Below the pieces are notes generated by a model. It was not told the DNA's origin and ran no database searches. It was given only the letters and a program-made list of their open reading frames with translations. From Pseudomonadota bacterium (GTDB taxonomy: Bacteria; Desulfobacterota; DSM-4660; Desulfatiglandales; Desulfatiglandaceae), in the NCBI GenBank assembly GCA_043808585.1, contig JAZDES010000221.1, positions 11,380 to 75,379 of the forward strand: 64,000 nt of DNA, written 5' to 3'. The translations under genes were made by a program, and so were the position numbers. Shown piece after piece: positions 10,943 to 27,679 of the stretch (within the stretch, counting starts at the first letter, position 1; every line of letters starts with the position of its first letter).

Positions 10943-12316
10943 TTATTTTTCAAGGCCATATCTCTTCATTTTCCTCCAGAGGGAAACGCGGTCAATGCCC
11001 ATAGTCTTGGCCGCCTTGGTCTTATTCCCTTCGCATTTTTCCAGTATCCATTGTATATAATGTTTCTCCTGATCTTCCAGGCTGGGAATGGCAGAACGGG
11101 TGCGGCGGTAGGTCTCTATGGAGAGATTTCGGATGTAATCAGGAAGGTCGGCGACGAGAATAGAGGTCCCGTTTTCCAGGGCAACGGCCCTTTCAACGAC
11201 ATTTTCCAATTCTCTCACATTTCCAGGCCAGCCGTATTGACATAGTAGGTCCATTGCCTCCCGTTCGATTTCTCGGATGTCTTTTTTCATGGCTTGAGTT
11301 TTTTGAGCCAAGAAATAATTAGCGAGCAAGGGAATATCCCCGTTCCGGTCCGCTAGGGGTGGAAGCTGAATGGTGATTACATTGAGGCGGTAAAAAAGAT
11401 CCTGCCGAAAATAACCGTTTTTCACGTCTTCCTTGAGATCGCGGTGAGTTGCGGCGATGAAGCGTACATCCACGGGAATAGGGTCCACACCCCCTACACG
11501 GAGGAATGTCTTCTCCTGAATGACTCGCAATAGCTTTACCTGCATGGTCAACGGCATGTCACCGATTTCATCCAAGAATACCGTTCCGCCATCCGCCACT
11601 TCTATCAATCCAGCTTTTTCTTTGGTGGCCCCGGTGAATGCGCCTTTTTCATGACCGAATAGTTCATTTGCCATCAACTCTTCCGTGAATGATCCACAAT
11701 TAAATGCTATGAATCTTTTTTCCGAACGAGCGCTCAGATGATGTATCGCCTTCGCCACCAGCTCTTTCCCGGTTCCACTTTCGCCCAATATCAATACATT
11801 GATATCTGAGGAGGCAATCTGCTCAATGGTTTTTTGAACAGAGATCATTGCCTCGCTTTTCCCCACAATAAAGGGAACCCGTTGCATCTTTTTCAGCGAC
11901 TCTTTCAGTTCAAGATTTTCCAGAAGGAGCCTGCGCTTAGTGAGGGCCTCTTTTACAATTTTACGGACCTCATCGATTTTATATGGTTTGGCAATATAAT
12001 GATAAGCCCCCTCCTTCATGGCCTTTACCGCAGAATCAACGGTAGCATATCCCGTGATCATGATCACTTCCGTATGGGGCTGCAGTTCCCGGCTTTTCTC
12101 TAAAACCTGCATCCCACCCACCTTCTCCATCTTGAGATCCGTAATGACCAGATCGAAGGTTTTTGAATTGAGCATTTCTAGGGCCTTCATTCCGTTATCC
12201 ACAGAAATGACGCCATACCCCTCTTTTTTGAGGATATGCTCCAGATTCTTCCGTGCTATAGCCTCATCTTCCACAATAAGTATCATTTCTTCGGTATCTG
12301 CCAGCGCTCCTAACAT
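10943..12316 (-). CDS. sigma-54-dependent response regulator (REC + AAA+ + Fis-type HTH; NtrC family)
   Basis: The REC domain has DLVITDLKM and AKP. The AAA+ domain has GESGTGKE, the GAFTGA loop (EKGAFTGA) and the RVGG/ATHRDL blocks. The C-terminal HTH is [22 protein letters not shown]. Confidence 0.9.
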
Positions 12317-12363: not shown

Positions 12364-13884
12364 TCAATTGCCGTCTCTTATCGTGCTTCTCGGATCATGA
12401 AGGTGAATAGGCAAAAAGACGGTAAATGTTGTGCCCCTATCTTGTTTACTTTCAACTTGTATTCGACCTCCATGTTGTTCAATAATGCCATGGGTTATAG
12501 AAAGGCCTAAACCGGTGCCTTTCCCCACCTCTTTGGTGGTGAAAAATGGATCAAAGATTTTTGAGAGATCTTCTTCACGTATTCCTTTACCACTATCTTG
12601 AACCCTAAAACAGAGCTCTCCTTTGACTTCGTTTTTGCAGGTATAGATCTTCAGGACTCCCCCGTTTTCCATGGCCTGAACACCATTGAGGATCAGGTTG
12701 ACCAGGACCTGTTGGATTCGCCGAGGATCCAATTCTAACCGAATATCCTCCGGTACCTCAACCCTTAGTTCTACATTGGGCGGCATCTCACCCTTGATCA
12801 GTTTGAGGGTATCATCCACCAGGTCCTTAAAACGAACCTCTTTTAGGCTAAATGATCTTTCTCTGGAAAATTCGAGTAGTGCTTTTACAATATCCCTGGT
12901 CCTTTCTACCTGTTTTTCTGTTTCGACCAGTAGCTCTTTTTTGTATTCCAGGTTACCCTCTTCCAGTTCTTCGAGCAGGATTTGAACAGAAGTGGAGATG
13001 TTATTCAGGGGGTTGTTCAATTCATGGGCTACACCTGAAGTTAAGGTCCCTAGAGAAGCCAACTTTTTGGCCTGTACAAGCTGTTCGTTGCGTTTGTTTA
13101 GTTCGTCGATCATATTGTTCAAGCTGTTCACCAGAGATTCAAATTCGTCTCCGGTAGATATGGGAGGTATATTCGCGTAATCTCCCACGGCGATCTTGTG
13201 AATGGCATCCTCAATAGACTTTAAGGGGCGATTGACATTGAAGATAAAAAAGAGGACAGCAAAGATAGATAGGACAAAAATTCCCAACAGGGCCAAAAAG
13301 TGATAATTCCTCGATTCCCTGATGAGCTGATTCACATAGCGGCGCTCCTGGGTGAGGATGGCCTCCATATCCTCTGTAATTTTTTTGCCGACGCCTCTGA
13401 TGATCTCTTGGTGCTGTGAAAAGCCCTTAATCAGATCTTGGCTGATCTCGGGGGAGCCCCTTAGCTGATGGAGTTTGAGTAGAGTGGACAGGGCCTTTTC
13501 GTATTTTCGAAGGTCATCGAGTCTTTCTTCCAGATTCTTTGAGAGGGTGAACCGGCCATAATCGTGAATGATGTTGGTCAGTTTTTGTTCTCCCTTGCGC
13601 GCATAAGATAAGGCTTCTTCCAGATTCTTAGGTTCCATATAGAGGAAATAGTTTTTCTCGTATCGACGGGCCTCAAGAATAGTATTGAAAAGGTCATCTT
13701 TCTTTTCCAAAATCCGAAGTTTTTGATTCAGGAGGTGGTGTTTATAGTAGTTCAAAAACCACATGGATCCACCAAGGATCAGGAAAAGCGAGATAGCGAT
13801 AATGATCTTTTTTCTCATACTGAGCTTTATATTTGACCCTTGTAGCTTCTGCAAACAGTCATGGACTGATTTCACTAAAGGCAA
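12364..13884 (-). CDS. sensor histidine kinase (helical periplasmic sensor, TM, HAMP, HisKA, HATPase_c)
   Basis: The H-box is SGVAHELNNPL, the N-box LVNLILNGVQAM and the G-boxes QDSGKGI and GTGLGLSI. It sits immediately upstream of the NtrC-type regulator. Confidence 0.88.
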   Translation of the reverse strand: MPLVKSVHDCLQKLQGSNIKLSMRKKIIIAISLFLILGGSMWFLNYYKHHLLNQKLRILEKKDDLFNTILEARRYEKNYFLYMEPKNLEEALSYARKGEQKLTNIIHDYGRFTLSKNLEERLDDLRKYEKALSTLLKLHQLRGSPEISQDLIKGFSQHQEIIRGVGKKITEDMEAILTQERRYVNQLIRESRNYHFLALLGIFVLSIFAVLFFIFNVNRPLKSIEDAIHKIAVGDYANIPPISTGDEFESLVNSLNNMIDELNKRNEQLVQAKKLASLGTLTSGVAHELNNPLNNISTSVQILLEELEEGNLEYKKELLVETEKQVERTRDIVKALLEFSRERSFSLKEVRFKDLVDDTLKLIKGEMPPNVELRVEVPEDIRLELDPRRIQQVLVNLILNGVQAMENGGVLKIYTCKNEVKGELCFRVQDSGKGIREEDLSKIFDPFFTTKEVGKGTGLGLSITHGIIEQHGGRIQVESKQDRGTTFTVFLPIHLHDPRSTIRDGN

Positions 13885-13887: not shown

Positions 13888-14748
13888 TCAATAATAATAG
13901 GGGAGGTCAATATCGCATATGGCGTCTTTAACGCCCGGGATCTTTTTCACGATTTGCAATATCTCCTTGGTCAAATCCTCTCTGATCTTTTCGCTAACTT
14001 GATCCTGCAAATTTGGGCTGGCAAAACCCGTTTTTTTGAGCCTCTGGGCCTTGACATGGATATGGACCACGCCATCATTTGCAGTCACTTCCGCTTCACA
14101 GACCTCTTGAATACCGGCCTGCACATGGCTACTCATGGCGAGATTATGGATAGCCTTTTCTGAATCCGAAGTTGCCTTGTAGGTATCACTTCTTGCTGCT
14201 GTGCAGATGATCTCGCAGGCATCCCGAAGCGTCAACCTCCCTATGCCTATATGCAAAACCATATCGTATAAGACTGGGTCACTCATATCGGCCTTAAAAA
14301 AATAGTGATTCCAATCAGCCCGTTCCCTGTCTTCCCTTTCAATAAATTTTATGGCTTCATCTCTGGATATATTCCTGTTTTTCTGTAGGAGAGCGATCCG
14401 GTCTTCCACTTCGGCAATCACCCGCACCTTCAGTACATGGGAGATTCCTGGAATGAGAACATGCCCTGCATAGCCATGATAGACGACGCTATCCTTCTTC
14501 ACATGTTCCAGCAAGGCTGCCTGGATGCAAGACAGAAACTTGTCCCTGGCGTGGGTTATTTTCTCTAAGATCGTAGGGGCATCATGAATGGAAGCCATCA
14601 GTTTCGCATCAGGGATATGAAAAAACTGAGAGGCCTCATCAATGACGACCTCCTGGCTCACACATTCGTAATTAAGGGTCCCCGCCACTCTCTCAGCGAT
14701 CTCCTGACCATGGCTGAAACATCCCCGCGAAATCGTTATTATCGCCAT
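13888..14748 (-). CDS. cytidylate-kinase-like family protein with C-terminal extension
   Basis: MAIITISRGCFSHGQEIAERVA... plus the VKVRVIAEVEDRI and RERADWNHYFF blocks resemble the Cytidylate_kin2-type family. Function is unknown. Confidence 0.55.
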   Translation of the reverse strand: MAIITISRGCFSHGQEIAERVAGTLNYECVSQEVVIDEASQFFHIPDAKLMASIHDAPTILEKITHARDKFLSCIQAALLEHVKKDSVVYHGYAGHVLIPGISHVLKVRVIAEVEDRIALLQKNRNISRDEAIKFIEREDRERADWNHYFFKADMSDPVLYDMVLHIGIGRLTLRDACEIICTAARSDTYKATSDSEKAIHNLAMSSHVQAGIQEVCEAEVTANDGVVHIHVKAQRLKKTGFASPNLQDQVSEKIREDLTKEILQIVKKIPGVKDAICDIDLPYYY

Positions 14749-14774: not shown

Positions 14775-16586
14775 TTAAATCCCATAGAAGAAATAGAGTA
14801 TGGAAAGCTCCACCGTTAAAAAGATCACGGTCATGATGGCGCCTGCTTTCGCATAGTCCACTGTGCGATATCCTCCGGGCCTCATAACCAGTGCATTGAC
14901 TTGGTGAGTGGGCAAAACGAAGGTGTTGGAAGCCGACAGTCCCACAACCAGCGCGGCCATCCGGGGATCTCCTCCGGCCATAACCGTCATATTCATACAG
15001 AGTGGGACCAGCAGGACAGTTGCCCCCACATTGGAAATCACAAGTGTGAAAAAAGAGGTCATGATGCCTACCACAGAAAGAAGCACAATGGGTGTGGGAT
15101 GGCCAAGCAATCCCAGGACCTTATGAGCAATGAAGGCCGCCGTCCCTGTTTTTTCAAAGGCAATTCCAAGGGGTATCAGTCCGGCCAATAGAAAGACGGT
15201 CATCCAATCCACAGCCCGGTATGCTTCATCCACTGAGAGCACGCCTGTGAGGATCATCCCCAATGCCCCGGACATGAGCGCAACGGAAAGCTGAACCTTA
15301 AAGAAAATGATCTGAAACAGGGCTGCCCCAAGCCAGAATATAGCAAGCTTGGCCTTATGGGGGCGCATAATTTCACCCTCAAGGGGGGTGGCAAAGGTGA
15401 GGGCTCTTGGCTGGGGGCGATTTTTCAAGATATGAAATCTCTCCCATGGCCCCTGCAGCAATAAGGTATCTCCCATTTGCATCCGGATACGTGTTAGGCC
15501 GCTATAGTATATCTTGTTGCCCTTGAATAAGGCCACAGGGTTGACCCCATAGAGTTCTTTGAAATTGATTTCGCTCATGGTTTTACCGATCAATTCCGAC
15601 CTAGGAGATACGACCGTTTCCGCCATTCCAGCGTTGGTTCGAGACAGAGTTTCGGCAAACACCTCAAGGCTGTCTTTTAGGCGCCAGCCATATTCGTCAA
15701 CAAGTCTCCGAATATTTTTCTCTCTTCCAACCACTGCAAGATCGTCATTTGCCTGGATTTTATCTGTACTACGGGGCACAAAGTTCTTCTCCTTTTTCTC
15801 TGAATGGCTGATGGCCACTACAGTTACGAGAAACCTTGCCCTGATGCCCAGTTCCTCCAAGGTCTTGGGGCCGCTGAAATTCCCTGATACGTGCAATTCA
15901 AAAATGGTATCCAGCGCTCGATATTCCTCAATCAAGGAAGCGGTGATCCCCTTGTCCGCTTCTCCTCCTCCACTCGGGAGGACAAATTTACCAAATATCG
16001 TAAAATATGCAATGGCGCTCACGAGCAGACATAGCCCTATTGGCGTCTGCGTAAATAGGCCAAAAGGTTCTAATTTTTTCCCTCCCAGCACCATCAGGTC
16101 GTTCAACAGGATGGTGGGACTAGCTCCCACCAAAGTGATGGTCCCCCCTATGATAGCGCAGAAGCCCATCGGCATAAGAATCCTGGATACAGGTACCTCC
16201 ATTCTCTTCGCGATACGTTGGGCCGCAGGCAGGAAAAGGGCGGCAGCTCCGATATTTTGCATCATACTTGAGATCAATCCAACGGTTCCGGAGACCAAGG
16301 TAATGACCCGTTTTTCACTCCTTCCTGCCAGTTTTATGATGGGGCCGGCCACCTGGTTCATCACGCCCGTCTTATCCAGCCCTGCTCCGATAATAATAAC
16401 CGCAATGATGGAACAAACCGCATTGCTGCTCAGGCCAACAAAGGCCTCCTTAGGGGAAATAAGGCCGGTAAGAGGGAGCAACACCATCATGATGATCCCC
16501 ACGACATCCACCCTGACCCACTCAAAGATAAAAAGAACAATCGCAAAGGCAAGTACCATCATCGTCAACAGCATTTCAGGCGTCAT
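14775..16586 (-). CDS. SLC13/DASS-family permease with two central TrkA-C domains
   Basis: Multi-TM halves flank two soluble RCK_C-like segments (GKTMSEINFKELYGVNPVAL...). The architecture is typical of this family. Confidence 0.8.
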   Translation of the reverse strand: MTPEMLLTMMVLAFAIVLFIFEWVRVDVVGIIMMVLLPLTGLISPKEAFVGLSSNAVCSIIAVIIIGAGLDKTGVMNQVAGPIIKLAGRSEKRVITLVSGTVGLISSMMQNIGAAALFLPAAQRIAKRMEVPVSRILMPMGFCAIIGGTITLVGASPTILLNDLMVLGGKKLEPFGLFTQTPIGLCLLVSAIAYFTIFGKFVLPSGGGEADKGITASLIEEYRALDTIFELHVSGNFSGPKTLEELGIRARFLVTVVAISHSEKKEKNFVPRSTDKIQANDDLAVVGREKNIRRLVDEYGWRLKDSLEVFAETLSRTNAGMAETVVSPRSELIGKTMSEINFKELYGVNPVALFKGNKIYYSGLTRIRMQMGDTLLLQGPWERFHILKNRPQPRALTFATPLEGEIMRPHKAKLAIFWLGAALFQIIFFKVQLSVALMSGALGMILTGVLSVDEAYRAVDWMTVFLLAGLIPLGIAFEKTGTAAFIAHKVLGLLGHPTPIVLLSVVGIMTSFFTLVISNVGATVLLVPLCMNMTVMAGGDPRMAALVVGLSASNTFVLPTHQVNALVMRPGGYRTVDYAKAGAIMTVIFLTVELSILYFFYGI

Positions 16587-16649
16587 CTGGGATACTCCTT
16601 TCCCTTCTACAATCTAATCCAGGACGTCTCTTCTCTAAGGACCATCCGT

Positions 16650-16754
16650 CTATTCTGCCCGGTCCGTTTTTTTCCTATTTCCTTTTCTGAACCAGAAACA
16701 CAAAAGAAATGTAAAGACGATGAGTGCTAAAGAAAAATAGAAATGGGCGCCCAT
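16650..16754 (-). CDS. possible 34-aa single-TM mini-protein upstream of the SLC13 gene
   Basis: An internal ATG with a strong RBS (agggaggaaaaaATG) gives the product MGAHFYFSLALIVFTFLLCFWFRKGNRKKTDRAE. No homology evidence is available. Confidence 0.3.
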   Translation of the reverse strand: MGAHFYFSLALIVFTFLLCFWFRKGNRKKTDRAE

Positions 16755-16993
16755 TTTTTCCTCCCTAATATTGATAAAATAAAAGCCCCCTCGCAAAATC
16801 GTGAAGCAAGAGGAGGCGGATGTATCTTTACACAAATAAACAGAAAACCCCACATGTCTTATGAAGACCGTAGGAGATTCTGTCTATGAAGAAATACTTG
16901 AATCTAAAGCGTTATGAAAACTGCCCCGAGTCAGCCAAAACAAAGGAAAAGCCTTACACTATTTGCCTTAAGCGCCGATCCTTTTGCCTTATC

Positions 16994-17554
16994 CTATACC
17001 ATTGAATAGACAAACATCTCACGCCTTGGCCTTTCACCCTCCTCCGCCCTGTTGGCTATCTGTTCTTCCTCAGCCTCTGAAACCACAAACTCGATATCCT
17101 CATACTCTCGCTTTATCTCTTGAAGGGCCTCATCCGGTTCACTGAATTTGACGACATGGGAAAAAGAAATCCCCATTTTTTCGGCCTCTTCCTGAAATAC
17201 CCTGACGTTTTTTTTTGAGATATCCCGAAATTCCTCACAGAGCTTGTTTCTTGAAAATGAAAACAATTTGAAGCTCTCGCAGGAGAGGGGGGCAGTGTTC
17301 AGGGCCAATATCTCGTAGGACATCCTTGCGGCCATCTCCAGGGCATAATCGATGATCTCTCTGGAGAATGTGCCTTCCCTTCCAACAACGAGCAGCTTTG
17401 CAGGCGTTTCTTCAATCCTTTCTTCTTTGGTAATCAGGCCCGTGGCATGTTCCTGCTGGCCCACCTCGGCAAATGTGACGGCTTCATGGTATTGGTCCAT
17501 CTTGTCTGTAAGCCTGCGTGCCCTATTTGTTAATTTTCCAAACAGTCCGCTCAT
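16994..17554 (-). CDS. USP-like protein with N-terminal FAEAGE-type module
   Basis: The N-terminus carries YHEAVTFAEVGQQEHATGLI (nt 17432-17482). The remainder resembles a universal stress protein fold (LLVVGREGTFSREIIDYALEMA...DIEFVVSE). Confidence 0.6.
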   Translation of the reverse strand: MSGLFGKLTNRARRLTDKMDQYHEAVTFAEVGQQEHATGLITKEERIEETPAKLLVVGREGTFSREIIDYALEMAARMSYEILALNTAPLSCESFKLFSFSRNKLCEEFRDISKKNVRVFQEEAEKMGISFSHVVKFSEPDEALQEIKREYEDIEFVVSEAEEEQIANRAEEGERPRREMFVYSMV

Positions 17555-17558: not shown

Positions 17559-18116
17559 TTAGATCCTCCTCTCAGAATGTCTGCAATGATTTAGCGCTGG
17601 ATACTCCTTCATCATCACAATAGGAGTAGATAGGTTTTTCCTTATCTTTCTGGGCAGAATCTTTTTCTTTCTTCCCGTTGGAGCCTCCTTGCCTTCTTCC
17701 TCGGAAGCATCATAGATGGTAAGAACGATATCCCGATGATCATTCACATAACTCAAAATCTCTTGATCTGGACTTCCTGATCTCATCGTTAGGTGCCAGG
17801 GAATGCCTGCCCTTTTCGATTCAGGGAGCAATTGGTTGATATTCCTTAAGGCTTCGGCCTTCATCTCTTTCATCTCTTTAGCCATCTCATGCTCACCGGC
17901 CTCTGCAAAGGTAGCCGCAATCATGGCTCCTTCAATATACCTTTTGGCATGATGAGACCCTTGACGGACTTTTTTTGCGTACCGGCTATAGGTTCTCAGC
18001 CTGATGATCTGCAGGATATCAAGTTCTGTCTTAATGCGTTTGCAGAGTTCCACCGCATAGCTGAATACCCTTCTATCCGGTGTCATCCCGTCGATGGCCA
18101 GCAAGACCTTCTTCAT
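17559..18116 (-). CDS. universal-stress-protein-like protein with internal FAEAGE-type module
   Basis: MKKVLLAIDGMTPDRRVFSYAVEL... and ...DIVLTIYD...STPIVMM are USP-like. The insert AMIAATFAEAGEHEMAKEM lies at nt 17871-17924. Confidence 0.65.
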   Translation of the reverse strand: MKKVLLAIDGMTPDRRVFSYAVELCKRIKTELDILQIIRLRTYSRYAKKVRQGSHHAKRYIEGAMIAATFAEAGEHEMAKEMKEMKAEALRNINQLLPESKRAGIPWHLTMRSGSPDQEILSYVNDHRDIVLTIYDASEEEGKEAPTGRKKKILPRKIRKNLSTPIVMMKEYPALNHCRHSERRI

Positions 18117-18153: not shown

Positions 18154-18339
18154 TTAGGCCCTTAGTACCGGACGCTGTTCTTCCCGTTTTATGACCCTAT
18201 ATTTGACCCGCTTTCGATTCTTCTTCCTTGGTGACTGGTTCATCATCTCCAGGGCGGTCTCCCGTTCTCCGGCCTGGGCAAACGTGGCCGCCATCATCCA
18301 TTGATCAAACGTATTAATCCTGGCTTTGATATTGAACAT
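18154..18339 (-). CDS. 61-aa mini-protein consisting mainly of the FAEAGE-type module plus a basic tail
   Basis: The product is MFNIKARINTFDQWMMAATFAQAGERETALEMMNQSPRKKNRKR... The start is moved to the second ATG (18339), which has an AGGAGG RBS 9 nt upstream. The ORF-track ATG at 18375 lies only about 5 nt after the -12 element of the sigma-54 promoter. Confidence 0.6.
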   Translation of the reverse strand: MFNIKARINTFDQWMMAATFAQAGERETALEMMNQSPRKKNRKRVKYRVIKREEQRPVLRA

Positions 18340-18380
18340 CTTAGATCGCCTCCTTTTTTGGACCTTTGTTACCATGGTTC

Positions 18381-18396
18381 AGCAATTTCTGTGCCA
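18381..18396 (-). promoter_or_regulatory. sigma-54 (-24/-12) promoter
   Basis: The minus strand reads TGGCACagaaaTTGCT, an exact TGGCAC-N5-TTGC consensus. It heads the operon 18339 to about 16994. Confidence 0.75.
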
Positions 18397-18695
18397 CCAT
18401 CTTAAAATAGTAGTGTATCCAGTTGATATCATTTATATATTGGCTATAAATGATGAAAATGAAAAATAGTGGCTGGTGTTACAATTTGCAACAAACGAAA
18501 GGGGATATTCCAATTATCTAACAATATTAATGCATTAATAACCATTACAAAAACAAATGAGATGTTTCGAAATGCAACGGAGGCAGACGTTTCGAGCTTC
18601 TGAGGGGTGAAGGGGATCCTGACTGCGCAACCCTTTGAGTTGCGATTCATCTTGAAAAGATTTATAGTCCTACCCATTTCAGAAGGAGTCACCAC

Positions 18696-20696
18696 ATGCG
18701 GATATTTAAGAAAAAAGGGGGGGAGCTTGAGGTAGTCACAGAGATAGGAGAGTTGAAGGATACGGTAAAGGACGCACATATGCCCGAGGATGTGGAAAAG
18801 GTGGCCCTAAACGAAATCGAGAGAATCGCTAAGATGGGTCCTTCTACTGCCGAATACACCATCGGGATGAACTACATCCACTACTTGGTGACCCTCCCGT
18901 GGAACAAAACGACCAAAGATCACTTAGATATTAAGACCGCCGAATCCATTCTTGATGACGCGCATTATGGCCTGTCAGAGATCAAAGATCGGATCGTAGA
19001 ATATTTGGCCGTCAGGGTATTAAAGGCCTCCCATAAGCACAGGATGCTGGTGGTGGATGATGAAAAGTTGACGAGAATGAACCTGGAACATGTCCTTACA
19101 AAGGAAGGATACCTTGTTCTTACTGCCGCCGACGGGGTCGAGGCCCTTGAGCTTCTGGAAGAAAACAGCTTTGATGTCATCTTGACTGATCTAAAGATGG
19201 AGAAGGTAGACGGAATGGGGGTCCTGGAGAAGGCCAAAAGTCTGAACCCCAATACGGAAGTGATTATGATTACGGGTTATGCCACAGTGCCTACAGCCGT
19301 TGAGGCCATGAAAAAGGGATCCTACCAGTTCCTTGCCAAGCCCCTCAAACTGGATGAAATCAGATCCAGCGTCCGAATGGCCCTATCTAAGAAAACGGCC
19401 CAATTAACCTCAAGAGGGCCGATTCTATGTTTTGTAGGTCCACCGGGTACCGGAAAGACGTCACTAGGAATGTCTATTGCACGTAGCCTTCACAGAAAAT
19501 TTATCCGTATCTCTCTGGGCGGGATGAAAGACGAGGCCGAAATAAGGGGGCATCGCAGAAGCTATGTGGGCGCCTTGCCCGGCAGAATAATCCAGGAAAT
19601 TCGCCGTGCCGAATCAAAAAACCCGGTCTTTATGCTGGATGAACTGGATAAGATCGGGCAGGATTTTAAGGGTGATCCAGCATCTGCCCTCCTGGAAGTC
19701 CTTGACCCAGAGCAGAATGCCCATTTCATGGACCACTATCTGGACGTGCCTTTTGATCTATCAAAGGTCATGTTTCTTGCCACGGCAAATACCGTTGATC
19801 CCATACCTGGCCCACTCCTGGACAGATTGGAGGTCTTGAGGCTTTCTGGGTATACCGAGCAGGAAAAGGAGCAGATCGCCTTCAGGTATCTTATCCCCAG
19901 AGAGATGGAGGAGGCTGGCCTTTCAGAGCACCCAGTTCAATTCACCCCTGATGCCGTCCACAAGATCATCAGGGAATACACCCGGGAAGCAGGTCTAAGG
20001 AACCTCCAGAGGCAAATCGCCGCCATATGCCGTAAAATGGCCAGGGACATTCTGTGCCAAGACGGAAAAGAAAGGACAGACCTGATCACCCCGGAGCTTG
20101 TGGAAACCTTGCTCGGGCCCCGAAAATTCTATTTTGAGGTTGCAGAAGCCAAGGAAAGAATAGGGGTCGCAACCGGGCTGGCATGGACGGAGACAGGGGG
20201 AGAGATCATATTTATCGAGGCCACAAAGATGAAAGGAAAAAACCGCCTCATCCTGACAGGTTCTCTTGGTGATGTGATGAAAGAGTCTGCTCGGGCGGCA
20301 TTGAGTTATATCCGAAGCAATACGGATCTATTTAATATTCCCGAAGACTTCTTCGATAACCATGACATACATATTCACGTCCCTGCCGGGGCCATACCCA
20401 AAGACGGTCCGTCGGCAGGCCTGACCATTGCTATCGCCCTGCTTTCACTGTTAACCAACCGTCCCAGCAGGAGAGATACGGCTTTGACAGGGGAATTGAC
20501 GTTGACCGGAAGGATACTTCCGGTCGGCGGAGTGAAAGAAAAAGTCCTGGCTGCCCATCGCGCTGGGGTAAAATCAGTGGTCTTTCCGGCCAAAAACGAG
20601 GCGGATCTCAAAGATATTCCTGATGATATAAAAAAGGATCTGGAAATCATTACGACAGATGAATTAGGAAAAACTGTTGATTTGGTTCTCAAGTAA
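18696..20696 (+). CDS. lon: Lon-family ATP-dependent protease lacking the N-terminal substrate domain and carrying an inserted receiver (REC) domain
   Basis: The Lon helical linker ([17 protein letters not shown]) is followed by a REC domain of about 120 aa (MLVVDDE...ILTDLKM...LAKP). Next come the AAA+ Walker [17 protein letters not shown] and Walker [10 protein letters not shown], then the Lon_C domain with the catalytic Ser (PKDGPSAG) and Lys (GGVKEK). An RBS (gaaggag) lies 8 nt before the ATG. Confidence 0.85.
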
Positions 20697-20952: not shown

Positions 20953-21408
20953 TTACTTATCCTTGTCTCGCTCCAGGATTTCCTTAGCCGTCTTATAGTC
21001 GCCAGCTTCAGCAAAGGCCGCTGCTGCCATGGGGCCTTCGATCTTGCTCCTGTAAGCCTTTCTAATGGTCTGAACAAGCCTCTCAATCTCCACCGGTTTC
21101 TGGAGGTATTCAAAGGCACCCAAGCGGCGAGCCTCTTTTTCGTCTTTCTCCGTACCATGGCCCGTTAGAATGATGACCTGAACCTTGGGATAGGCCTTCT
21201 TGATCCGCCGAAGAACCTCCATGCCATCAATACCAGGCATCTTCAGGTCCAGCACCATCACATCGGGGACCTGATTATCAACGATCTTGAGGGCCTGTTC
21301 TCCGTTGAGCGCAATATCCGGCCCAAGATCCCGCATCTGAATCCGTTCGGCAAGCGTCTTTACAAATTCCTCTTCATCGTCCACCAGAAGGATCTTGATC
21401 TGTTCCAT
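20953..21408 (-). CDS. single-domain response regulator (REC) with C-terminal FAEAGE-type module
   Basis: It is a canonical REC (LLVDDEEEF, VMVLDLKMPG, ILTGHG, LQKP) followed by the tail GPMAAAAFAEAGDYKTAKEILERDKDK (nt 20974-21030). Confidence 0.85.
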   Translation of the reverse strand: MEQIKILLVDDEEEFVKTLAERIQMRDLGPDIALNGEQALKIVDNQVPDVMVLDLKMPGIDGMEVLRRIKKAYPKVQVIILTGHGTEKDEKEARRLGAFEYLQKPVEIERLVQTIRKAYRSKIEGPMAAAAFAEAGDYKTAKEILERDKDK

Positions 21409-21585
21409 TTCCTGCTCCTTAAAGAGAATTGATCTGTGAAGGGGACTCTCCCTATTATTCTAATGTATAAGCAATTACGTCGTGATGCAACATTTTTCCA
21501 ATGTCCGTGAATTGAAGCCCCCTACCGTGAGACTTCACCGAACTCAGTCGAACCATCTCTTGAAGCATTCGGTCACGGGTATGAA

Positions 21586-22131
21586 TCAACTGGCCTTTGT
21601 CCTTGAGGTTGTTGCTCCGGTTGGGAGGCCTTTTTCTTTGGGGAGGAATTCCCTGGCTATGTCCGGCTCACCTGCCTCTGCAAAGGTAGCGGCAACCATA
21701 ACGTCTTGATAACGTCGGAGCAATGACTTCTTTGTCTTTTCATTTTTCTTTTTTAGCCGGTATGCTTCCTGAATTCGCTCAGCCAGTGAATCCATGTTAA
21801 GGGGCAAAAAGACATCGTCAAAGGCGCCTAGCTTCATGCCTTCTATGGATAGTGAGAGGTACTCTGATGTATTTATGATGATAACTTCGGTGAGGGGGCG
21901 AATCTTCTTGATCCTTTCGAGGAGCAAAAGACCTTGCCGCTTCAGTCCATTTAGGCCCAGCAATACGACATCGATCTTTTTTCTCTCAAGTATCTTTCTG
22001 GCATCAGCTTGTTGCTCTGCTTCAAAGACCCGATACCTTTGGAGGCGGAGACGCCGAGACAGATTCAGACGAAATAGGCCATCCGCTTCTACGATCAAGA
22101 GATTGATTCCCATAAACACAAAGGGGGACAT
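21586..22131 (-). CDS. pseudo-receiver domain protein with C-terminal FAEAGE-type module
   Basis: The protein has a REC-like fold. The acidic pair reads VEAD, the phospho-acceptor position reads VVLLGLNG (Gly in place of Asp), and the conserved Lys position reads FLPL. The tail is VMVAATFAEAGEPDIAREFL (nt 21643-21702). Confidence 0.7.
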   Translation of the reverse strand: MSPFVFMGINLLIVEADGLFRLNLSRRLRLQRYRVFEAEQQADARKILERKKIDVVLLGLNGLKRQGLLLLERIKKIRPLTEVIIINTSEYLSLSIEGMKLGAFDDVFLPLNMDSLAERIQEAYRLKKKNEKTKKSLLRRYQDVMVAATFAEAGEPDIAREFLPKEKGLPTGATTSRTKAS

Positions 22132-22139
22132 TCCGAGAG

Positions 22140-22331
22140 TTAAACCCGTGCCAACCCATACGATACGCGAACGTTCGATAACCCCACCGTCTCCAAAAAG
22201 GTCTCTAAAGATTGATGCCTTTTTGGGGCTAGTCTCTTCCCCAAGAATTCCTTGGCCATTTCAGGACATCCAGCTTCTGCAAAAGCGACCGCTGCAAAGT
22301 CTCTTTCTATCCGTTTTAGCCATTTCTTCAT
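22140..22331 (-). CDS. 63-aa mini-protein with FAEAGE-type module
   Basis: The product is MKKWLKRIERDFAAVAFAEAGCPEMAKEFLGKRL... An RBS (caaggagga) lies 7 nt upstream. It is the first gene behind the sigma-54 promoter at 22384-22399. Confidence 0.6.
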   Translation of the reverse strand: MKKWLKRIERDFAAVAFAEAGCPEMAKEFLGKRLAPKRHQSLETFLETVGLSNVRVSYGLARV

Positions 22332-22383
22332 GACGTTGTCCTCCTTGCTTTGTTGGGTATAATGATTCTCTTTTCTTTCTTAA

Positions 22384-22399
22384 AGCAAAAGGTGCGCCA
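22384..22399 (-). promoter_or_regulatory. sigma-54 (-24/-12) promoter
   Basis: The minus strand reads TGGCGCaccttTTGCT, with correct GG-N10-GC spacing, about 50 nt upstream of the ATG at 22331. Confidence 0.65.
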
Positions 22400-22644: not shown

Positions 22645-23013
22645 TTATGTACCTTTTACGGCCTCCTGCATCTTCACAATTAACTCATCAAGCTTTAATG
22701 GCTTCATCAGATAATCAAAAGCGCCCAGGCGCATCCCCTCAATACCTTCTCTAGTGGATCCTCGTCCCGTCAAGAGAATCACAGGCAGCTGGGGATTTCC
22801 AACTTTGATAAGACGAAGGACTTCAAGCCCTCCCAAGCCTGGCATCAGCACATCTAAGACGACCACCTGAGGAGGGTCGGCCTCAATGAGACGCAATGCT
22901 TCTTCACCGGATGTCGCAGTCTTGACCTGAATCCCTCTCAGTTCGAGTCTTTCTGCGAGGGTTGTGACGAATTCCTCCTCGTCATCTACAAGTAACACCT
23001 TCCACTTATCCAT
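22645..23013 (-). CDS. single-domain response regulator (CheY-like REC)
   Basis: LLVDDEEEFVTTLAERL, VVVLDVLMPG, LLTGRG and LMKP are present, with a GGAGGAG RBS. Confidence 0.88.
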   Translation of the reverse strand: MDKWKVLLVDDEEEFVTTLAERLELRGIQVKTATSGEEALRLIEADPPQVVVLDVLMPGLGGLEVLRLIKVGNPQLPVILLTGRGSTREGIEGMRLGAFDYLMKPLKLDELIVKMQEAVKGT

Positions 23014-23031
23014 TTTACTCCTCCAGCCCTA

Positions 23032-23394
23032 CTAGGCCTCCGTTTTTCCCAGACCCTTCCGCCTATAAAGTATATCGCCCGCCCGAAGGGCGCCTTTTCT
23101 AAAATGCTCCAGCACAGATTCATAAGGACCGATCACCGAATCCAGAACCCTTACTCTTTTCCAAGTGATGTACTGATAATACTCCTCCTCTATGCCTCCG
23201 CAAATGACCAGCTGGACGCCTTCGGTGAGAATCAGGTGACAAAGTTGTTCTCCAGAGGCCTGAGGGAGCACCACCATCTTTTCATCAGTCTTCTCTCCCT
23301 TTTCATCCGTAGAAACAATAACTGCCTCTGTCGCCAAATCAAACCGTGGTGCTACCTCATTACCGTACAAAGGAATAAGCAATTTTTGAGACAT
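23032..23394 (-). CDS. NifB/NifX-family (dinitrogenase FeMo-cofactor-binding domain) protein
   Basis: EVAPRFDLATEAVIV...GVQLVICGGIEEE...RVRVLDSV match the Nitro_FeMo-Co fold pattern in both size and layout. Confidence 0.6.
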   Translation of the reverse strand: MSQKLLIPLYGNEVAPRFDLATEAVIVSTDEKGEKTDEKMVVLPQASGEQLCHLILTEGVQLVICGGIEEEYYQYITWKRVRVLDSVIGPYESVLEHFRKGALRAGDILYRRKGLGKTEA

Positions 23395-23501
23395 GAAGAA
23401 ACCTTACCTGAACTTTTCAGCTCCTTTTCTGTGTTTGATTCTCCTCTTGGAAGACCTGTCTGGACCCGCATCTGTCAGGTGCTCGTTTGAACCTATGGCG
23501 T

Positions 23502-24920
23502 TCATGAGCTTATCCCATACTCTTTCATTTTTCTCCACAGGGTGCTTCTTCCCCAACCCAAAAGGGCTGCGGCCTTGGTCCTCCGGCCTCTCGCCTTGAT
23601 GAGTGCTTCCATGATCATTTTCTTTTCAGTTGATGACCAGGTCTCTGTTTCCCATTTCCTTCTTAGATCCTCTACCCCTGGCTGCACGGAAATCGAGGCC
23701 CAATTCTCTCCGACCCCTCTCTCCTGGAGCTCAAGCCCCTTTTCTGTTAGATAGGTAGGAAGGTGTTTTGGATGAATGAGTCCTCCCTGGGAGATATTTA
23801 CTGCATATTCAATAATATTTCTCAGTTCTCTCACATTACCAGGGTAGTGGTAGTCCGACAGGATTCGAAGGGCCTTGCTCGAAAACCCTCCAATATCCTT
23901 TTTGAATTGGGTGGCGAAGGTGTTGAGAAAGTGATCGATCAGGAGCCTGACGTCGTCATCCCGCTCTCTCAGGGGAGGCAGGTGAAGACGGACTACGTTG
24001 AGCCTGAAGAGGAGATCTTCCCTGAAACCTCCGTCTCCAACCATTTGTTCAAGGTTTCGGTGGGTTGCGGCGACAATTCTCACATCAGCCTGAAAGCCCC
24101 TAGTACTCCCCAATGGATAGATCACCCTGTCATCCAGGAAGGTCAGCAGTTTGACCTGGAGGGAGGGAGGGAGGTCACCGATTTCCGTAAGATAAAGCGT
24201 GCCATGGTGGGCCAGACGAAATCGCCCCGGTTTGTTCTCAACGGCCCCGGTGAAGGCCCCTTTCTGGTGCCCGAAGAGCTCTGATTCCAGCAAGGTTTCA
24301 GGTAATGCCCCGCAATTGAGCTTGATAAAAGGCCCCTTGGCCCTGCTTGAGGCCTGGTGAATTGTCTCTGCAACCAGGTCTTTGCCCGTACCGGTCTCAC
24401 CGGTGATGAGTACAGAAGAATCGCTCTGGGCAAGAACAGGGAGAATCTGAAAGATCTTTTCGATTTGTGGACTCTTGCCGATCAGAGGTCCAAAACTATA
24501 GGCTTGCCCGGTCTTTCCCTCCAGCCTGCGAAGGGGACGCATGTCTTCTACCGTTTCCAAAAAACCGACTAACTCACTTTCAATGTCTTTGAGGGGGGCC
24601 ATCGTAATACGTACAGGAATTTTCTGGCGGGCGCGGTTGATGAGGTCGCTTTCAACACACGGCGGTTCAGCTTCTGCGTTTAGATTCAAGGCAGGGCAAC
24701 CTTGGACGCATATCCTGTTTCGTAGGACATGATAACAGGGAATGCCCCGGGCTTCTTCCCTGGAAAATCCGGTGAGAGCTTCCAAGGCTCGATTCAAGAA
24801 GATGACCGTGCGCTCCACATCAAGCACCACGACACCAAGAGGGATTTCATCAACCAGTGAGCGGAAGGCAACGGGCAGAGAAAAGAGCCCTATGACTTCT
24901 GGCAAATGGCTCGTGTACAA
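23502..24920 (-). CDS. sigma-54-dependent transcriptional activator with N-terminal PAS domain and Cys-rich segment
   Basis: A PAS-like N-terminus carries CYHVLRNRICVQGCP...PPC. The AAA+ domain has GETGTGKD and GAFTGA (QKGAFTGA). The C-terminal HTH is KAAALLGWGRSTLWRKMKEYGI. Confidence 0.88.
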   Translation of the reverse strand: MYTSHLPEVIGLFSLPVAFRSLVDEIPLGVVVLDVERTVIFLNRALEALTGFSREEARGIPCYHVLRNRICVQGCPALNLNAEAEPPCVESDLINRARQKIPVRITMAPLKDIESELVGFLETVEDMRPLRRLEGKTGQAYSFGPLIGKSPQIEKIFQILPVLAQSDSSVLITGETGTGKDLVAETIHQASSRAKGPFIKLNCGALPETLLESELFGHQKGAFTGAVENKPGRFRLAHHGTLYLTEIGDLPPSLQVKLLTFLDDRVIYPLGSTRGFQADVRIVAATHRNLEQMVGDGGFREDLLFRLNVVRLHLPPLRERDDDVRLLIDHFLNTFATQFKKDIGGFSSKALRILSDYHYPGNVRELRNIIEYAVNISQGGLIHPKHLPTYLTEKGLELQERGVGENWASISVQPGVEDLRRKWETETWSSTEKKMIMEALIKARGRRTKAAALLGWGRSTLWRKMKEYGISS

Positions 24921-25322
24921 GATCCTGTTTCTCCATTAATGACCGAAGTTAAAACCTTGACTGAGTGATACAACATCCTCTAACTCAAATAGATCACTTT
25001 GTGTCCGCTCAATAACCCAGGGAAATGATAGAGGCCCGCCACCCATCCATTTTCCCTTGAAAAGGGGGGCCTGGGAGAGGGTGAATTTCCTGCCGATTAT
25101 TGGACAAGTACACACCTTTGAGGTAGGCTATCAGAAAACCAGATTGAAATAAAGTAAGGATTAATCTCTTGACTGATCACCATATATCACATATTGTTCC
25201 CGCGTGAATCCATGAGGGTATTCAGGGCGTTAAAAGTGAAAACGGCAACAGAGGGGTGAAAGAAAAGCGCCCTTTTTCATCTGAGAAATGGTGTCCAAGA
25301 ATTAAGGTAGGGAGGTCGATGG

Positions 25323-26285: not shown

Positions 26286-26352
26286 CCCCTCAGAGGAGAT
26301 TTTTCTTCAAAAGAGAAGTGGCCTTCAGAACGTCCAGTAAGGAGGAAAGATC

Positions 26353-26778
26353 ATGACTGATAAATTGGAAGCGACGCTTGAAGCAAGCCCGGAACAGGTC
26401 CGTTATGCCGGTATCCTCGAAAAGGGGATGTATATCGGATTATTGTTGCTTCTTATCACCTTTGCCATTTATGCCTTCGGTATTATGAAGCCCTATATCC
26501 CTCTGGATAAGATCTCCAAGTTCTGGAACATGAACGTACATGATTACCTGCGGCATACCAACATTAAGAACGGGTGGGGTTGGCTTGCGATGCTTAAGTA
26601 CGGGGACTTTATTAATTTTATCGGGGTGGCGATTTTGGCTGGAGTGACCATCATTTGCTATCTGACTATTATTCCGATCCTCCTGAGAAACGACGACAAG
26701 GTCTATGCCCTATTGGCGTTTCTCGAAGTAGTAATCCTCTCCCTGGCGGCCAGCGGGATTCTTGCTGTGGGGCACTGA
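26353..26778 (+). CDS. integral membrane protein, unknown function (about 3 TM)
   Basis: Hydrophobic segments are evident and the gene is tightly linked downstream of the TauE-like gene. It may be a DUF1634-type partner, but I cannot verify this. Confidence 0.5.
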   Translation: MTDKLEATLEASPEQVRYAGILEKGMYIGLLLLLITFAIYAFGIMKPYIPLDKISKFWNMNVHDYLRHTNIKNGWGWLAMLKYGDFINFIGVAILAGVTIICYLTIIPILLRNDDKVYALLAFLEVVILSLAASGILAVGH

Positions 26779-26840
26779 GAAAGGGCGTGGCGAGAAAGAA
26801 ATCGAAAGCGATCCATTTTGAAGATCAAGGAGGATAGACC

Positions 26841-27389: not shown

Positions 27390-27679
27390 CTTTTTGCACG
27401 ACCTGGTCCTGGTCTGATTCAGCTCCGCATTCTTGAACCTTCCCTCATCGCCGTTCGGAGCCCGTTTATCCATAAAGTCCGCGACCCCAGTTCGTTGCCC
27501 TCTATTTTTGCTCCTGCACGACCTCATCGACGGCAATTCACCTACTTCGCGATCCTTTTTCCGTTTACAGGCAGCGGCCTCTTTTTATATACTAGCCTCA
27601 TCAGAAAGGATTGACTCGAATAACCGGCCCTTCTAGCCTTATGAAAGATTGATGTCTCTACTTTATTCTGGATATCGAG

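What the first reader, a model, noticed from the sequence alone, without database searches (positions are those of the whole stretch)
18696..20696. Lon protease with the N-terminal substrate domain replaced by nothing and a receiver domain spliced between the helical linker and the AAA+ module
The protein begins inside the long Lon linker helix (...[26 protein letters not shown]...[17 protein letters not shown]), so the roughly 240-aa PUA-like LON substrate-binding domain is absent.

In canonical Lon, the segment after EYLAV leads directly into GPILCLVGPPGVGKT. Here a complete REC domain is inserted first (MLVVDDE...[16 protein letters not shown]...MITGYA...LAKP), and [16 protein letters not shown] follows it. 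The protease Ser (GPSAG) and Lys (GGVKEK) are both intact.

The inserted REC is closest to the REC of the NtrC-type regulator at 10943-12316. By my hand alignment about 68 of 117 positions are identical. Both share the unusual DLKMEKV(D/G)GM acceptor loop and the [11 protein letters not shown] block. This suggests domain recruitment from that regulator and possible control by the kinase at 12364-13884.

The architecture implies phosphorylation-gated proteolysis. I do not know of a characterised example.
Basis: partly seen in the sequence, partly recalled or inferred. Interest (0 to 1): 0.72.

Follow-up and report, generated by a model that had tools for sequence, protein, structure and literature searches.

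The report
Receiver-domain Lon protease, DVU3303 family
This gene encodes a Lon protease that has lost its usual substrate-binding head and carries a phosphorylation-switch (receiver) domain inside its ATPase module; it is real and conserved, but it belongs to a family first noted in Desulfovibrio vulgaris in 2011 (DVU3303), whose biochemistry is still untested.

Summary
ORF 18696-20696 (+, 666 aa) is a LonA-type protease with no N-terminal substrate domain. A complete receiver (REC) domain, residues about 111-237, sits between the last pre-Walker helix and the first strand of the AAA+ module. All REC, ATPase and protease catalytic residues are intact and invariant across the family.

It is not an artefact. 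Hundreds of about 665-680-aa homologues share the layout in Desulfobacterota and Nitrospirota.

It is not new. Rajeev et al. 2011 described DVU3303 as a response regulator "containing a lon protease" in a three-component system with kinase DVU3304 and sigma54 regulator DVU3305, and proposed phosphorylation-dependent proteolysis. Trotter et al. 2023 found cofitness above 0.9 for the three genes.

The window carries the whole system:
- a HAMP kinase and a sigma54 regulator;
- two DVU3305-type operators;
- a perfect sigma54 promoter driving a divergent small-protein/Usp/anion-transporter operon.

The two REC domains are old paralogues that co-vary within loci, which points to one shared kinase rather than a recent splice. 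I found no biochemical or structural study.

Side finding: a TPR-like "AAxFAEAGE" mini-motif protein family belongs to this system's gene neighbourhood in some lineages.

The parts
18696..20696 (+). REC-Lon coding sequence (666 aa plus stop)
   Evidence: identical protein P0001 in NCBI, named 'endopeptidase La'
18696..19025 (+). N-terminal helical region (residues 1-110). It equals Lon residues about 237-344: the three-helix bundle plus the pre-Walker helix [17 protein letters not shown]. No globular N-domain or long helix precedes it.
   Evidence: alignment; AF2 helices 16-26, 31-45, 52-66, 79-89, 94-111
19026..19406 (+). Inserted receiver (REC) domain, residues 111-237. Acidic pair D121/D122 at 19056-19061, T193 at 19272-19274, K215 at 19338-19340.
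19188..19190 (+). Codon of D165, the predicted phospho-acceptor aspartate (TDLKM)
   Evidence: invariant; coordinates
19407..20084 (+). AAA+ alpha/beta and lid domains, residues 238-463. Walker A K254 at 19455-19457, pore-loop Y290 at 19563-19565, Walker B D315/E316 at 19638-19643.
20085..20693 (+). Lon_C (S16) protease domain, residues 464-666. Catalytic S573 at 20412-20414 and K616 at 20541-20543.
18640..18668 (+). Sigma70-like promoter candidate (TTGCGA-17-TATAGT) in front of REC-Lon. No good sigma54 promoter faces this gene (best score 14.5 of 19.5).
   Evidence: consensus match only
18564..18578 (.). DVU3305-type operator GTTTCGAAATGCAAC
   Evidence: motif from Rajeev 2011 Table S9; the motif recurs beside REC-Lon in all loci
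18478..18492 (.). DVU3305-type operator GTTACAATTTGCAAC
18382..18396 (-). Perfect sigma54 promoter TGGCACAGAAATTGC, driving the divergent operon
18154..18339 (-). 61-aa small protein with the AATFAQAGERETALEMM motif. The start is re-set to ATG 18339 (RBS AAGGAGG); the ORF listing gave 18375, which overlaps the promoter.
   Evidence: (61-aa orthologue called in L001)
17559..18116 (-). Usp-domain protein (185 aa) with the motif inserted
16994..17554 (-). 186-aa protein with an N-terminal motif and a remainder that looks Usp-like by eye (no Pfam match)
14775..16586 (-). CitMHS/TrkA_C anion transporter, the counterpart of the DVU3299-type target
13888..14748 (-). Cytidylate-kinase-like protein (Cytidylate_kin2), in the same gene row
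12364..13884 (-). TM-sensor-TM-HAMP-HisKA-HATPase histidine kinase (likely start Met at 13818). Candidate shared kinase, the DVU3304 counterpart.
10943..12316 (-). REC-sigma54 activator-HTH_8 response regulator, the DVU3305 counterpart
20953..22399 (-). Right flank: REC protein 20953-21408 and REC-like protein 21586-22131, each ending in the motif; 63-aa motif protein 22140-22331; one-mismatch sigma54 promoter 22385-22399. Membership in the same system is uncertain because this flank is not conserved in L001.

Best explanation
The gene encodes a response-regulator form of LonA, in the same family as DVU3303 of Desulfovibrio vulgaris.

What it is (shown). It is a working ATP-dependent Ser-Lys protease. 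It has lost the globular N-domain and the long helix that canonical Lon uses to select and unfold substrates. A phospho-accepting REC domain is wired rigidly into the AAA+ module, between the pre-Walker helix and strand beta1.

Where it sits (shown). It is one of two outputs of a conserved three-component system. The other output is a sigma54 regulator, and the shared neighbour is a HAMP histidine kinase.

How it most likely works (inferred). The kinase at 12364-13884 phosphorylates both response regulators. The sigma54 regulator at 10943-12316 binds the two GTTRC-N5-GCAAC operators and fires the sigma54 promoter at 18382-18396. That promoter drives the divergent small-protein/Usp/anion-transporter operon. 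REC-Lon appears to be made from its own sigma70-like promoter, and phosphorylation of D165 switches its ATPase, ring assembly or pore access. One signal would then control both synthesis and proteolysis.

Direction of the switch (inferred, weakest step). I favour activation by phosphorylation, by analogy with NtrC-type REC-AAA+ proteins, but the direction is not established.
For: Architecture and intact chemistry.

Purifying selection on both switch and machine. D121, D122, D165, K215, Walker A and B, pore-loop Y290, S573 and K616 are invariant in 35 members at 48-86% identity.

Rigid coupling. Both junctions have invariant length across those members, 14 and 26 residues. The AF2 model has a confident (beta-alpha)5 REC (pLDDT 85-92). 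Helix 94-111 enters REC beta1 after 4 residues, and a long alpha5 (219-237) enters AAA+ beta1 (243-245) after 5 residues.

A real family. All 240 top clusters from two searches carry REC and are mostly 660-690 aa. About 25-30 representatives at 50% clustering match in a single stretch. Members occur in Desulfobacter, Syntrophobacter, Desulfobulbus, Desulfopila, Desulfuromusa, Solidesulfovibrio and Nitrospirota. The window protein is collinear with the Solidesulfovibrio protein: 50% identity over residues 20-666 with 2 gaps.

System context. REC-Lon, kinase and sigma54-RR are adjacent in L001-L006 and L082.

Shared kinase. Lon-REC and RR-REC form one clade, 46-61% identical to each other against 23-39% to other RECs. 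Within-locus identity exceeds cross-locus identity: 1 of 720 permutations reach the observed value over all columns, and 10 of 720 for the kinase-docking alpha1 helix.

Cis elements. Two DVU3305-type operators lie in the 320-bp spacer, against 1.28 matches expected in the whole window. There is a perfect sigma54 promoter. The same operator recurs beside REC-Lon in all eight loci.

Literature. Rajeev 2011; Trotter 2023, cofitness above 0.9 for DVU3303-3305. A MtaLon mutant lacking residues 1-243 fails on a folded substrate, so a natural N-domain-less Lon needs another way to engage substrates (PMC8519571).
Against: No experiment shows phosphotransfer to this REC or any effect of phosphorylation on proteolysis. 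The direction of the switch is a guess.

The D. vulgaris cofitness could partly reflect polarity, because DVU3303 is the first gene of the DVU3303-3305 operon. That caveat is my inference.

The AAA+ part of the AF2 model is poorly predicted (residues 326-383 have pLDDT below 50), and no hexamer model could be made.

The sigma70-like promoter is only a consensus match.

DVU3303 itself could not be fetched. The link to the published family rests on the Solidesulfovibrio orthologue (the genus now holding D. magneticus, by my recollection of the reclassification; D. magneticus DMR_10810 is in Rajeev's ortholog table), on the shared operator motif and on synteny.
Confidence: 0.7

Rival explanations
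1. The switch has the opposite sign. Unphosphorylated REC-Lon is the active protease and phosphorylation turns it off, as for CpdR, which primes ClpXP only when unphosphorylated. Proteolysis would then clear the regulon's products once the signal stops.
For: NCBIfam finds similarity to CpdR-type receivers (1.2e-20). The closest solved RECs are those of NtrC1, where the unphosphorylated REC is the regulatory state (mechanism from my own knowledge). In Trotter 2023, system mutants are beneficial in chlorate while the target transporter mutant is detrimental. That sign pattern is hard to fit to a pure transcriptional activator, but it does not fix the direction of the protease switch.
Against: Nothing in the sequence distinguishes the two directions. 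The Lon, kinase and regulator mutants behave alike, which is more simply explained if the kinase activates both outputs.
Confidence: 0.2
2. The REC mainly replaces the lost N-domain. It would serve as a docking site for substrates or adaptors, or as an oligomerisation element. Alternatively it acts as a phosphate sink that tunes the sigma54 regulator. In either case phosphorylation would not gate catalysis.
For: The N-domain is needed for substrate handling in canonical Lon and is absent here, so something must take over. Branched pathways with sink receivers are known (my own knowledge).
Against: A pure sink would not need ATPase and protease residues to stay invariant. Insertion with fixed-length junctions directly next to the P-loop strand suggests allosteric coupling rather than a tethered docking module.
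Confidence: 0.08
3. The gene is an artefact: a frameshifted, truncated or chimeric Lon gene, or a decaying pseudogene.
For: DVU3303 was originally annotated 'ATP-dependent protease La, truncation'. One family representative (P0125) is a broken assembly.
Against: The same start (F4 invariant), length and domain order recur in hundreds of independent assemblies, including complete genomes. No N-domain remnant exists in any frame. Catalytic residues are invariant.
Confidence: 0.01

Closest known systems
DVU3303 of Desulfovibrio vulgaris Hildenborough and its orthologues (Rajeev et al. 2011, PMC3333781; Trotter et al. 2023, PMC10102598)
   Same: It is a response regulator with a Lon protease output and was annotated as a truncated Lon. 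It lies with a histidine kinase and a sigma54 regulator whose operator is GTTGC-N5-GCAAC. A divergent Usp/membrane/anion-transporter operon sits next to it. The published hypothesis is the same: phosphorylation-dependent proteolysis.
   Different: The gene order differs. Here the kinase and regulator sit at the end of the divergent operon rather than downstream of Lon. The transporter is CitMHS/TrkA_C, where the Solidesulfovibrio (L082) and Nitrospirota (L003) loci have a TauE-type protein. This lineage adds several TPR-like motif proteins. DVU3303's own sequence was not compared directly.
Canonical LonA (E. coli Lon; Thermus and Meiothermus Lon, 7p6u and 7fd4; B. subtilis 3m6a)
   Same: The three-helix bundle, AAA+ module, lid and S16 Ser-Lys protease domain are shared. 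Seven canonical Lons fetched here are 54-64% identical over the AAA+/protease block. The protein scores above the TIGR00763 cutoff.
   Different: It lacks the globular N-domain and long helix (Lon 1 to about 236) that build the substrate-selecting top layer. It has about 125 residues of REC inserted between the pre-Walker helix and beta1.
NtrC1/NtrC/DctD-type sigma54 activators (REC fused to an AAA+ ATPase)
   Same: The REC is of the same subfamily; the best solved matches are 1zy2, 1ny5 and 4l4u. A helical alpha5/linker leads into an AAA+ domain. Those proteins are the precedent for a REC controlling AAA+ ring assembly.
   Different: The output is proteolysis, not sigma54 remodelling. The REC is an internal insertion rather than an N-terminal domain. 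There is no DNA-binding domain.
RssB and CpdR (receiver proteins that control ClpXP proteolysis)
   Same: Two-component phosphorylation is coupled to AAA+ proteolysis.
   Different: Those act in trans as adaptors for ClpXP. Here the receiver is part of the protease polypeptide.
CheB (REC-regulated methylesterase)
   Same: A REC gates a hydrolase in the same polypeptide.
   Different: The enzyme is unrelated and has no ATPase. REC is N-terminal in CheB.

Membership tests
LonA (endopeptidase La, TIGR00763 / MEROPS S16) | AAA+ module with Walker A, Walker B and a pore-loop aromatic residue | tested here: met
   GPPGTGKT (K254), D315/E316 and Y290 are present and invariant
LonA (endopeptidase La, TIGR00763 / MEROPS S16) | C-terminal S16 protease domain with a Ser-Lys dyad | tested here: met
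   Lon_C 5e-85; S573 and K616
LonA (endopeptidase La, TIGR00763 / MEROPS S16) | N-terminal LON substrate-binding (PUA-like) domain and long helix | tested here: not met
   No Pfam LON_substr_bdg match. The alignment starts at Lon residue about 237. No N-domain in any frame of the window.
LonA (endopeptidase La, TIGR00763 / MEROPS S16) | Score above the curated family cutoff | tested here: met
   TIGR00763: 756.4 bits against a cutoff of 608, matched in two stretches. The E. coli-type model NF008053 scores 596 against 891, which is not met.
Two-component response regulators | REC fold with the acidic pair, acceptor Asp, Thr/Ser and Lys | tested here: met
   Response_reg 3e-28. D121, D122, D165 and K215 are invariant and T193 is at least 90% conserved. 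AF2 gives a (beta-alpha)5 fold with pLDDT 85-92.
Two-component response regulators | A cognate histidine kinase | tested here: inconclusive
   A histidine kinase is a conserved neighbour in 7 of 7 related loci, with HAMP seen wherever domains were scanned, and the two RECs co-vary within loci. This is genomic inference only.
Two-component response regulators | Phosphotransfer to the acceptor Asp changes output activity | not testable with these tools
   Needs biochemistry
DVU3303-3305-type three-component system (Rajeev 2011) | A Lon-containing response regulator adjacent to a histidine kinase and a sigma54-dependent response regulator | tested here: met
   The layout of Lon, then kinase, then regulator is seen in L003, L086 and L088.
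DVU3303-3305-type three-component system (Rajeev 2011) | DVU3305-type operator GTTGC-N5-GCAAC upstream of the Lon gene or divergent operon | tested here: met
   Sites at 18478-18492 and 18564-18578; motif table; present in all 8 loci
DVU3303-3305-type three-component system (Rajeev 2011) | Sigma54-driven divergent operon with Usp-type and membrane/anion-transport proteins | tested here: met
   Perfect sigma54 promoter at 18382-18396 (-); Usp and CitMHS/TrkA_C genes
DVU3303-3305-type three-component system (Rajeev 2011) | Direct sequence orthology to DVU3303 itself | not tested
   The DVU3303 sequence was not obtainable. The Solidesulfovibrio orthologue served as proxy.

The most novel reading that the evidence does not exclude
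REC-Lon is a dedicated, kinase-gated protease. Its clients or adaptors would be the co-encoded proteins that carry the portable TPR-like 'AAxFAEAGE-x3-A+E' hairpin: small 56-100-aa proteins with one or two copies, plus Usp and REC proteins with one copy. The motif would replace the lost N-domain as the recognition device, so a single kinase would drive both sigma54-dependent synthesis and phospho-switched degradation of the same protein set.
Probability: 0.12. Interest if true: 0.75.

Novelty: new member of a known kind. Interest (0 to 1): 0.45.

Why it matters
AAA+ proteases are normally regulated through adaptors, substrate tags or expression level. A Lon whose ATPase module carries its own two-component receiver would be a protease switched directly by a sensor kinase.

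The family is widespread in sulfate reducers and Nitrospirota, and it is genetically tractable in D. vulgaris. No biochemical or structural study was found.

The insertion site is mechanistically informative. It lies between the pre-Walker helix and strand beta1, has fixed-length junctions, and keeps the three-helix bundle. Together with the conserved three-component context, this gives a concrete and testable model. The window adds no new principle beyond the 2011 observation. It does add a well-resolved example and a candidate set of partner proteins.

Tried and rejected
1. Hidden N-domain or frameshift: rejected.

2. Recent domain capture from the neighbouring regulator: rejected by the REC tree.

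3. A sigma54 promoter in front of REC-Lon in the window: none convincing (best 14.5 of 19.5). Only L002 and L005 have a good one on the Lon side.

4. P0125 as a natural 'REC-AAA-motif' fusion: rejected. Contig L083 is broken or inverted. The protease domain lies on the opposite strand at 2243-2569, and the apparent C-terminus is a separate small motif protein.

5. The motif as an obligatory REC-Lon partner: rejected.
- An HMM finds no copy in five REC-Lon loci (L002, L004, L005, L006, L082).
- One motif locus (L089) has no REC-Lon within 8 kb.

6. Fetching DVU3303 itself: failed.
- It returned only five full REC-Lon loci among canonical Lons and NtrC-type regulators.

7. Curated families for the motif proteins: no significant match in Pfam or NCBIfam. 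There is only a sub-threshold PPR hit (E 0.026) and TPR_4 on a few relatives.

8. Literature searches for biochemical work on REC-Lon found nothing beyond the D. vulgaris papers.
Full report
**1.

The ORF at 18696-20696 (+) encodes 666 aa. It starts at an ATG preceded by GAAGGAG.

Pfam finds four domains: Response_reg at residues 118-226 (3e-28), AAA at 244-381, Lon_lid at 405-458 and Lon_C at 464-665 (5e-85). There is no LON substrate-binding domain. NCBIfam's 'lon' equivalog TIGR00763 matches above its cutoff (756 against 608 bits), but in two pieces.

A search of PDB sequences fixes the geometry. Residues 3-110 align to residues 237-344 of Lon 7p6u. Residues 237-665 align to 349-775. The intervening residues match NtrC1-type receivers.

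In Meiothermus Lon, residues 1-206 are the globular N-domain, 207-237 the long helix and 238-243 a hinge. The three-helix bundle that follows belongs to the AAA+ module (PMC8519571). This protein is therefore a natural N-domain-less Lon that keeps the bundle.

The upstream 320 bp are AT-rich intergenic DNA, and the next gene lies on the other strand. Seven canonical Lon N-domains find nothing in any frame of the 64-kb window (best E 0.41). The full-length Lons align as two blocks that bracket the REC-coding segment.

BLASTP gives exactly 68/117 identities to the REC of the regulator at 10943-12316, against 31% to another REC in the window.

**2. It is a conserved family, not an accident**

The best 120 clusters found with the window protein are 73-100% identical to it. 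The best 120 found with a Desulfovibrio-like member are 59-100% identical to that query. All carry PF00072, and most are 660-690 aa.

An exhaustive HMMER search with residues 1-250 found about 25-30 representatives, at 50% clustering, that match in one continuous stretch across bundle, REC and Walker A.

Named sources include:
- Desulfobacter vibrioformis DSM 8776;
- Syntrophobacter, Desulfobulbus propionicus DSM 2032, Desulfopila, Desulforhopalus and Desulfuromusa;
- Solidesulfovibrio;
- Nitrospirota.

The Solidesulfovibrio protein is collinear with the window protein: 50% identity over residues 20-666, with 2 gaps.

In 35 members spanning 48-86% identity to the window protein, these residues are invariant:
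- REC: D121, D122, D165, K215;
- AAA+ module: Walker A, Walker B and pore-loop Y290;
- protease: S573 and K616.

Both junctions have invariant length.

The AlphaFold2 model has mean pLDDT 75.7. The REC is a confident (beta-alpha)5 domain. Helix 94-111, the HYGL...EYLAV helix that precedes the P-loop strand in Lon, enters REC beta1 after four residues. A long alpha5 (219-237) enters strand 243-245 just before GPPGTGKT.

I read this as an insertion inside the AAA+ large subdomain, between its N-terminal helix and beta1. A REC conformational change could act directly on the nucleotide site from there. This reading is an inference. The ATPase core of the model is poorly predicted, and no hexamer could be modelled.

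**3. The system around it**

The minus-strand gene row, in map order from the left end (transcription runs the opposite way, starting next to REC-Lon), is:
- REC-sigma54 activator-HTH_8 regulator, 10943-12316;
- TM-sensor-TM-HAMP-HisKA-HATPase kinase, 12364-13884;
- cytidylate-kinase-like protein, 13888-14748;
- CitMHS/TrkA_C transporter, 14775-16586;
- 186-aa protein that looks Usp-like by eye, 16994-17554;
- Usp protein, 17559-18116;
- 61-aa protein, 18154-18339.

The whole row is divergent from REC-Lon.

The spacer holds a perfect sigma54 promoter on the minus strand, TGGCACAGAAATTGC at 18382-18396. It also holds two palindromes, GTTACAATTTGCAAC and GTTTCGAAATGCAAC.

In seven related loci, REC-Lon, a histidine kinase and a sigma54-RR are always neighbours. 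Those loci span an 86% relative, Desulfobacter, Nitrospirota, Syntrophobacter, Desulfobulbales, Desulfocapsaceae and Solidesulfovibrio. The transporter and Usp genes recur in several of them.

The strong sigma54 promoter almost always faces the small-protein/Usp operon rather than Lon. The window has only a sigma70-like match in front of Lon. The protease therefore seems to be controlled mainly after translation.

**4. What is already known**

Rajeev et al. [quoted passage not shown] They place it in a three-component system with kinase DVU3304 and sigma54 regulator DVU3305.

In their account, DVU3305 controls its own operon and DVU3302-3298, which encode Usp-type and membrane proteins. The genes are induced by several stresses. 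[quoted passage not shown] The TIGR annotation of DVU3303 was 'ATP-dependent protease La, truncation'.

Their Table S9 gives the DVU3305 operator as GTTGC[G/A]AAA[T/C]GCAAC. Examples include GTTGCGAAATGCAACG in D. vulgaris Miyazaki. The table lists Lon-type neighbours in D. magneticus, Desulfomicrobium, D. salexigens and Thermodesulfovibrio.

The window's two sites match that motif with one mismatch each. They are the only matches near the system, against 1.28 expected in the whole window. The motif recurs beside REC-Lon in all eight loci.

Trotter et al. 2023 (PMC10102598) report pairwise cofitness above 0.9 for DVU3303-3305. They also report opposite chlorate phenotypes for the system and its transporter target DVU3299. 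Kazakov et al. 2015 list the regulon.

I found no biochemical or structural work. No PDB chain spans both REC and Lon.

**5. Origin of the REC and the kinase link**

Lon-RECs and RR-RECs from seven loci form one clade. They are 46-61% identical to each other across the two types (one pair 38%), against 23-39% to outgroup RECs.

Within that clade they never pair by genome. The window's Lon-REC groups with the Lon-RECs of L001 and L002 (80% bootstrap). Its RR-REC groups with other RR-RECs (97%). The deep branches are unresolved.

This argues for an old duplication, not a recent splice. Even so, within-locus Lon-REC/RR-REC identity exceeds cross-locus identity:
- all columns, with the close relative L001 excluded: 0.525 against 0.488, reached by 1 of 720 permutations;
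- the alpha1 helix that docks on kinases: reached by 10 of 720 permutations.

That pattern is expected if both receivers co-evolve with one kinase. The sample is small, and shared ancestry could contribute.

**6. Mechanism**

Shown:
- an intact REC, ATPase and protease under purifying selection;
- a rigid insertion next to the P-loop strand;
- loss of the substrate-selecting N-layer;
- a conserved kinase and sigma54-RR partnership, with shared operators.

Inferred:
- the kinase phosphorylates both receivers;
- the regulator switches on the divergent operon;
- phosphorylation of D165 switches Lon's ATPase, assembly or pore access.

I favour activation by phosphorylation, because the mutant phenotypes of all three genes are alike and by analogy with NtrC. 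The opposite sign (CpdR- or NtrC1-like) remains possible. Polarity in the transposon data is a caveat.

**7. Side finding: a motif family**

Six proteins within about 2.5 kb of the gene, on either side of it, carry a motif of about 22 aa, '[hydrophobic]xAAxFAEAGE-x3-A[K/R]E[hydrophobic]'. About 0.07 copies are expected by chance. The motif occurs alone in the 61- and 63-aa proteins. It is inserted in or prefixed to the Usp-type proteins, and it sits at the C-terminus of two REC proteins.

A profile of the small proteins finds a family of 55-110-aa proteins: 2021 candidates, with a best E-value of 7.5e-29. Many have two motif copies, and a few carry Pfam TPR_4.

I took six members chosen only for lying on long contigs:
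- four lie directly divergent from a 664-667-aa REC-AAA-Lon_C gene;
- all six lie beside a histidine kinase, five of them also with the sigma54-RR;
- four have a TauE or CitMHS transporter with Usp.

An HMM finds the motif in 11 of 16 system loci and nowhere in 1.15 Mb of control loci.

Five REC-Lon loci lack the motif, and one motif locus lacks REC-Lon. The motif therefore belongs to this signalling system's gene neighbourhood in some lineages. It is not an obligatory Lon partner. Whether it is a degron or a docking tag for the N-domain-less Lon is an open, testable idea.

**8. Verdict**

The finding is real and well observed. It is an orthologue of a published but biochemically uncharacterised family, so I rate it a new member of a known kind. 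Interest is moderate (0.45). A cis phospho-switched AAA+ protease is unusual and experimentally attractive. Neither the architecture nor the hypothesis is new.

Noticed in passing
window 17426-17491, 17865-17933, 18238-18306, 20971-21039, 21643-21708, 22239-22307 (all on the - strand): A TPR-like mini-motif of about 22 aa, 'AAxFAEAGE-x3-A+E', occurs six times around the REC-Lon gene against about 0.07 expected. It appears in two small proteins, two Usp-type proteins and at the C-termini of two REC proteins. The small-protein family is large, has no curated model, and lies beside the kinase/sigma54-RR/REC-Lon system in Desulfobacterota and Nitrospirota. It is absent from five REC-Lon loci.
   Followed up: yes
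window 22385-22399 (-), upstream of ORF 22140-22331: A second sigma54-type promoter (TGGCGCACCTTTTGC, one mismatch) sits in front of the 63-aa motif protein and the two motif-tailed REC proteins. No DVU3305-type operator is nearby. A PAS-sigma54 activator at 23502-24920 may be its regulator.
   Followed up: partly
window 18154-18375 (-): The mechanical ORF start at 18375 lies inside or next to the sigma54 promoter. The likely true start is ATG 18339, behind AAGGAGG, which gives 61 aa. The orthologue in L001 and the NCBI record are called that way.
   Followed up: yes
proteins P0132, P0163, P0185, P0215 (alignment A1): A subgroup of REC-Lon-like proteins has a degenerate Walker A (GPSETGKA, GPSYEAH, TSGSDDRK, TAADAEK). 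These may be ATPase-dead variants reminiscent of LonC. The REC acceptor residues are kept.
   Followed up: no
L083 1-2632 (protein P0125): The REC-Lon gene is interrupted after the lid domain and runs in frame into a small motif protein. The missing protease domain lies inverted at 2243-2569. This is probably an assembly break or an inversion between two inverted small-protein genes flanking Lon.
   Followed up: partly
window 16587-16993 (- strand gap between p186 and the transporter): The 407-bp gap contains a hairpin followed by a T-run that looks like a terminator. It also contains a mini-ORF of 34 aa for a hydrophobic peptide (MGAHFYFSLALIVFTFLLCFWFRKGNRKKTDRAE) behind a GGGAGG ribosome-binding site. 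L001 has a 31-aa ORF at the same place. The operon may be split or attenuated here.
   Followed up: partly
window 6883-9024 (+) and 22645-29452: The surroundings are dense in signalling genes: a RelA/SpoT homologue, a further stand-alone REC, a PAS-sigma54 activator, a TauE exporter, a CBS protein and a dCache histidine kinase.
   Followed up: no
L089 and L007: The kinase/sigma54-RR/motif-protein/TauE/Usp module can occur without a REC-Lon gene within 8 kb (L089). It can also occur next to a second kinase/sigma54-RR pair (L007). REC-Lon therefore looks like an accessory output of the system.
   Followed up: partly
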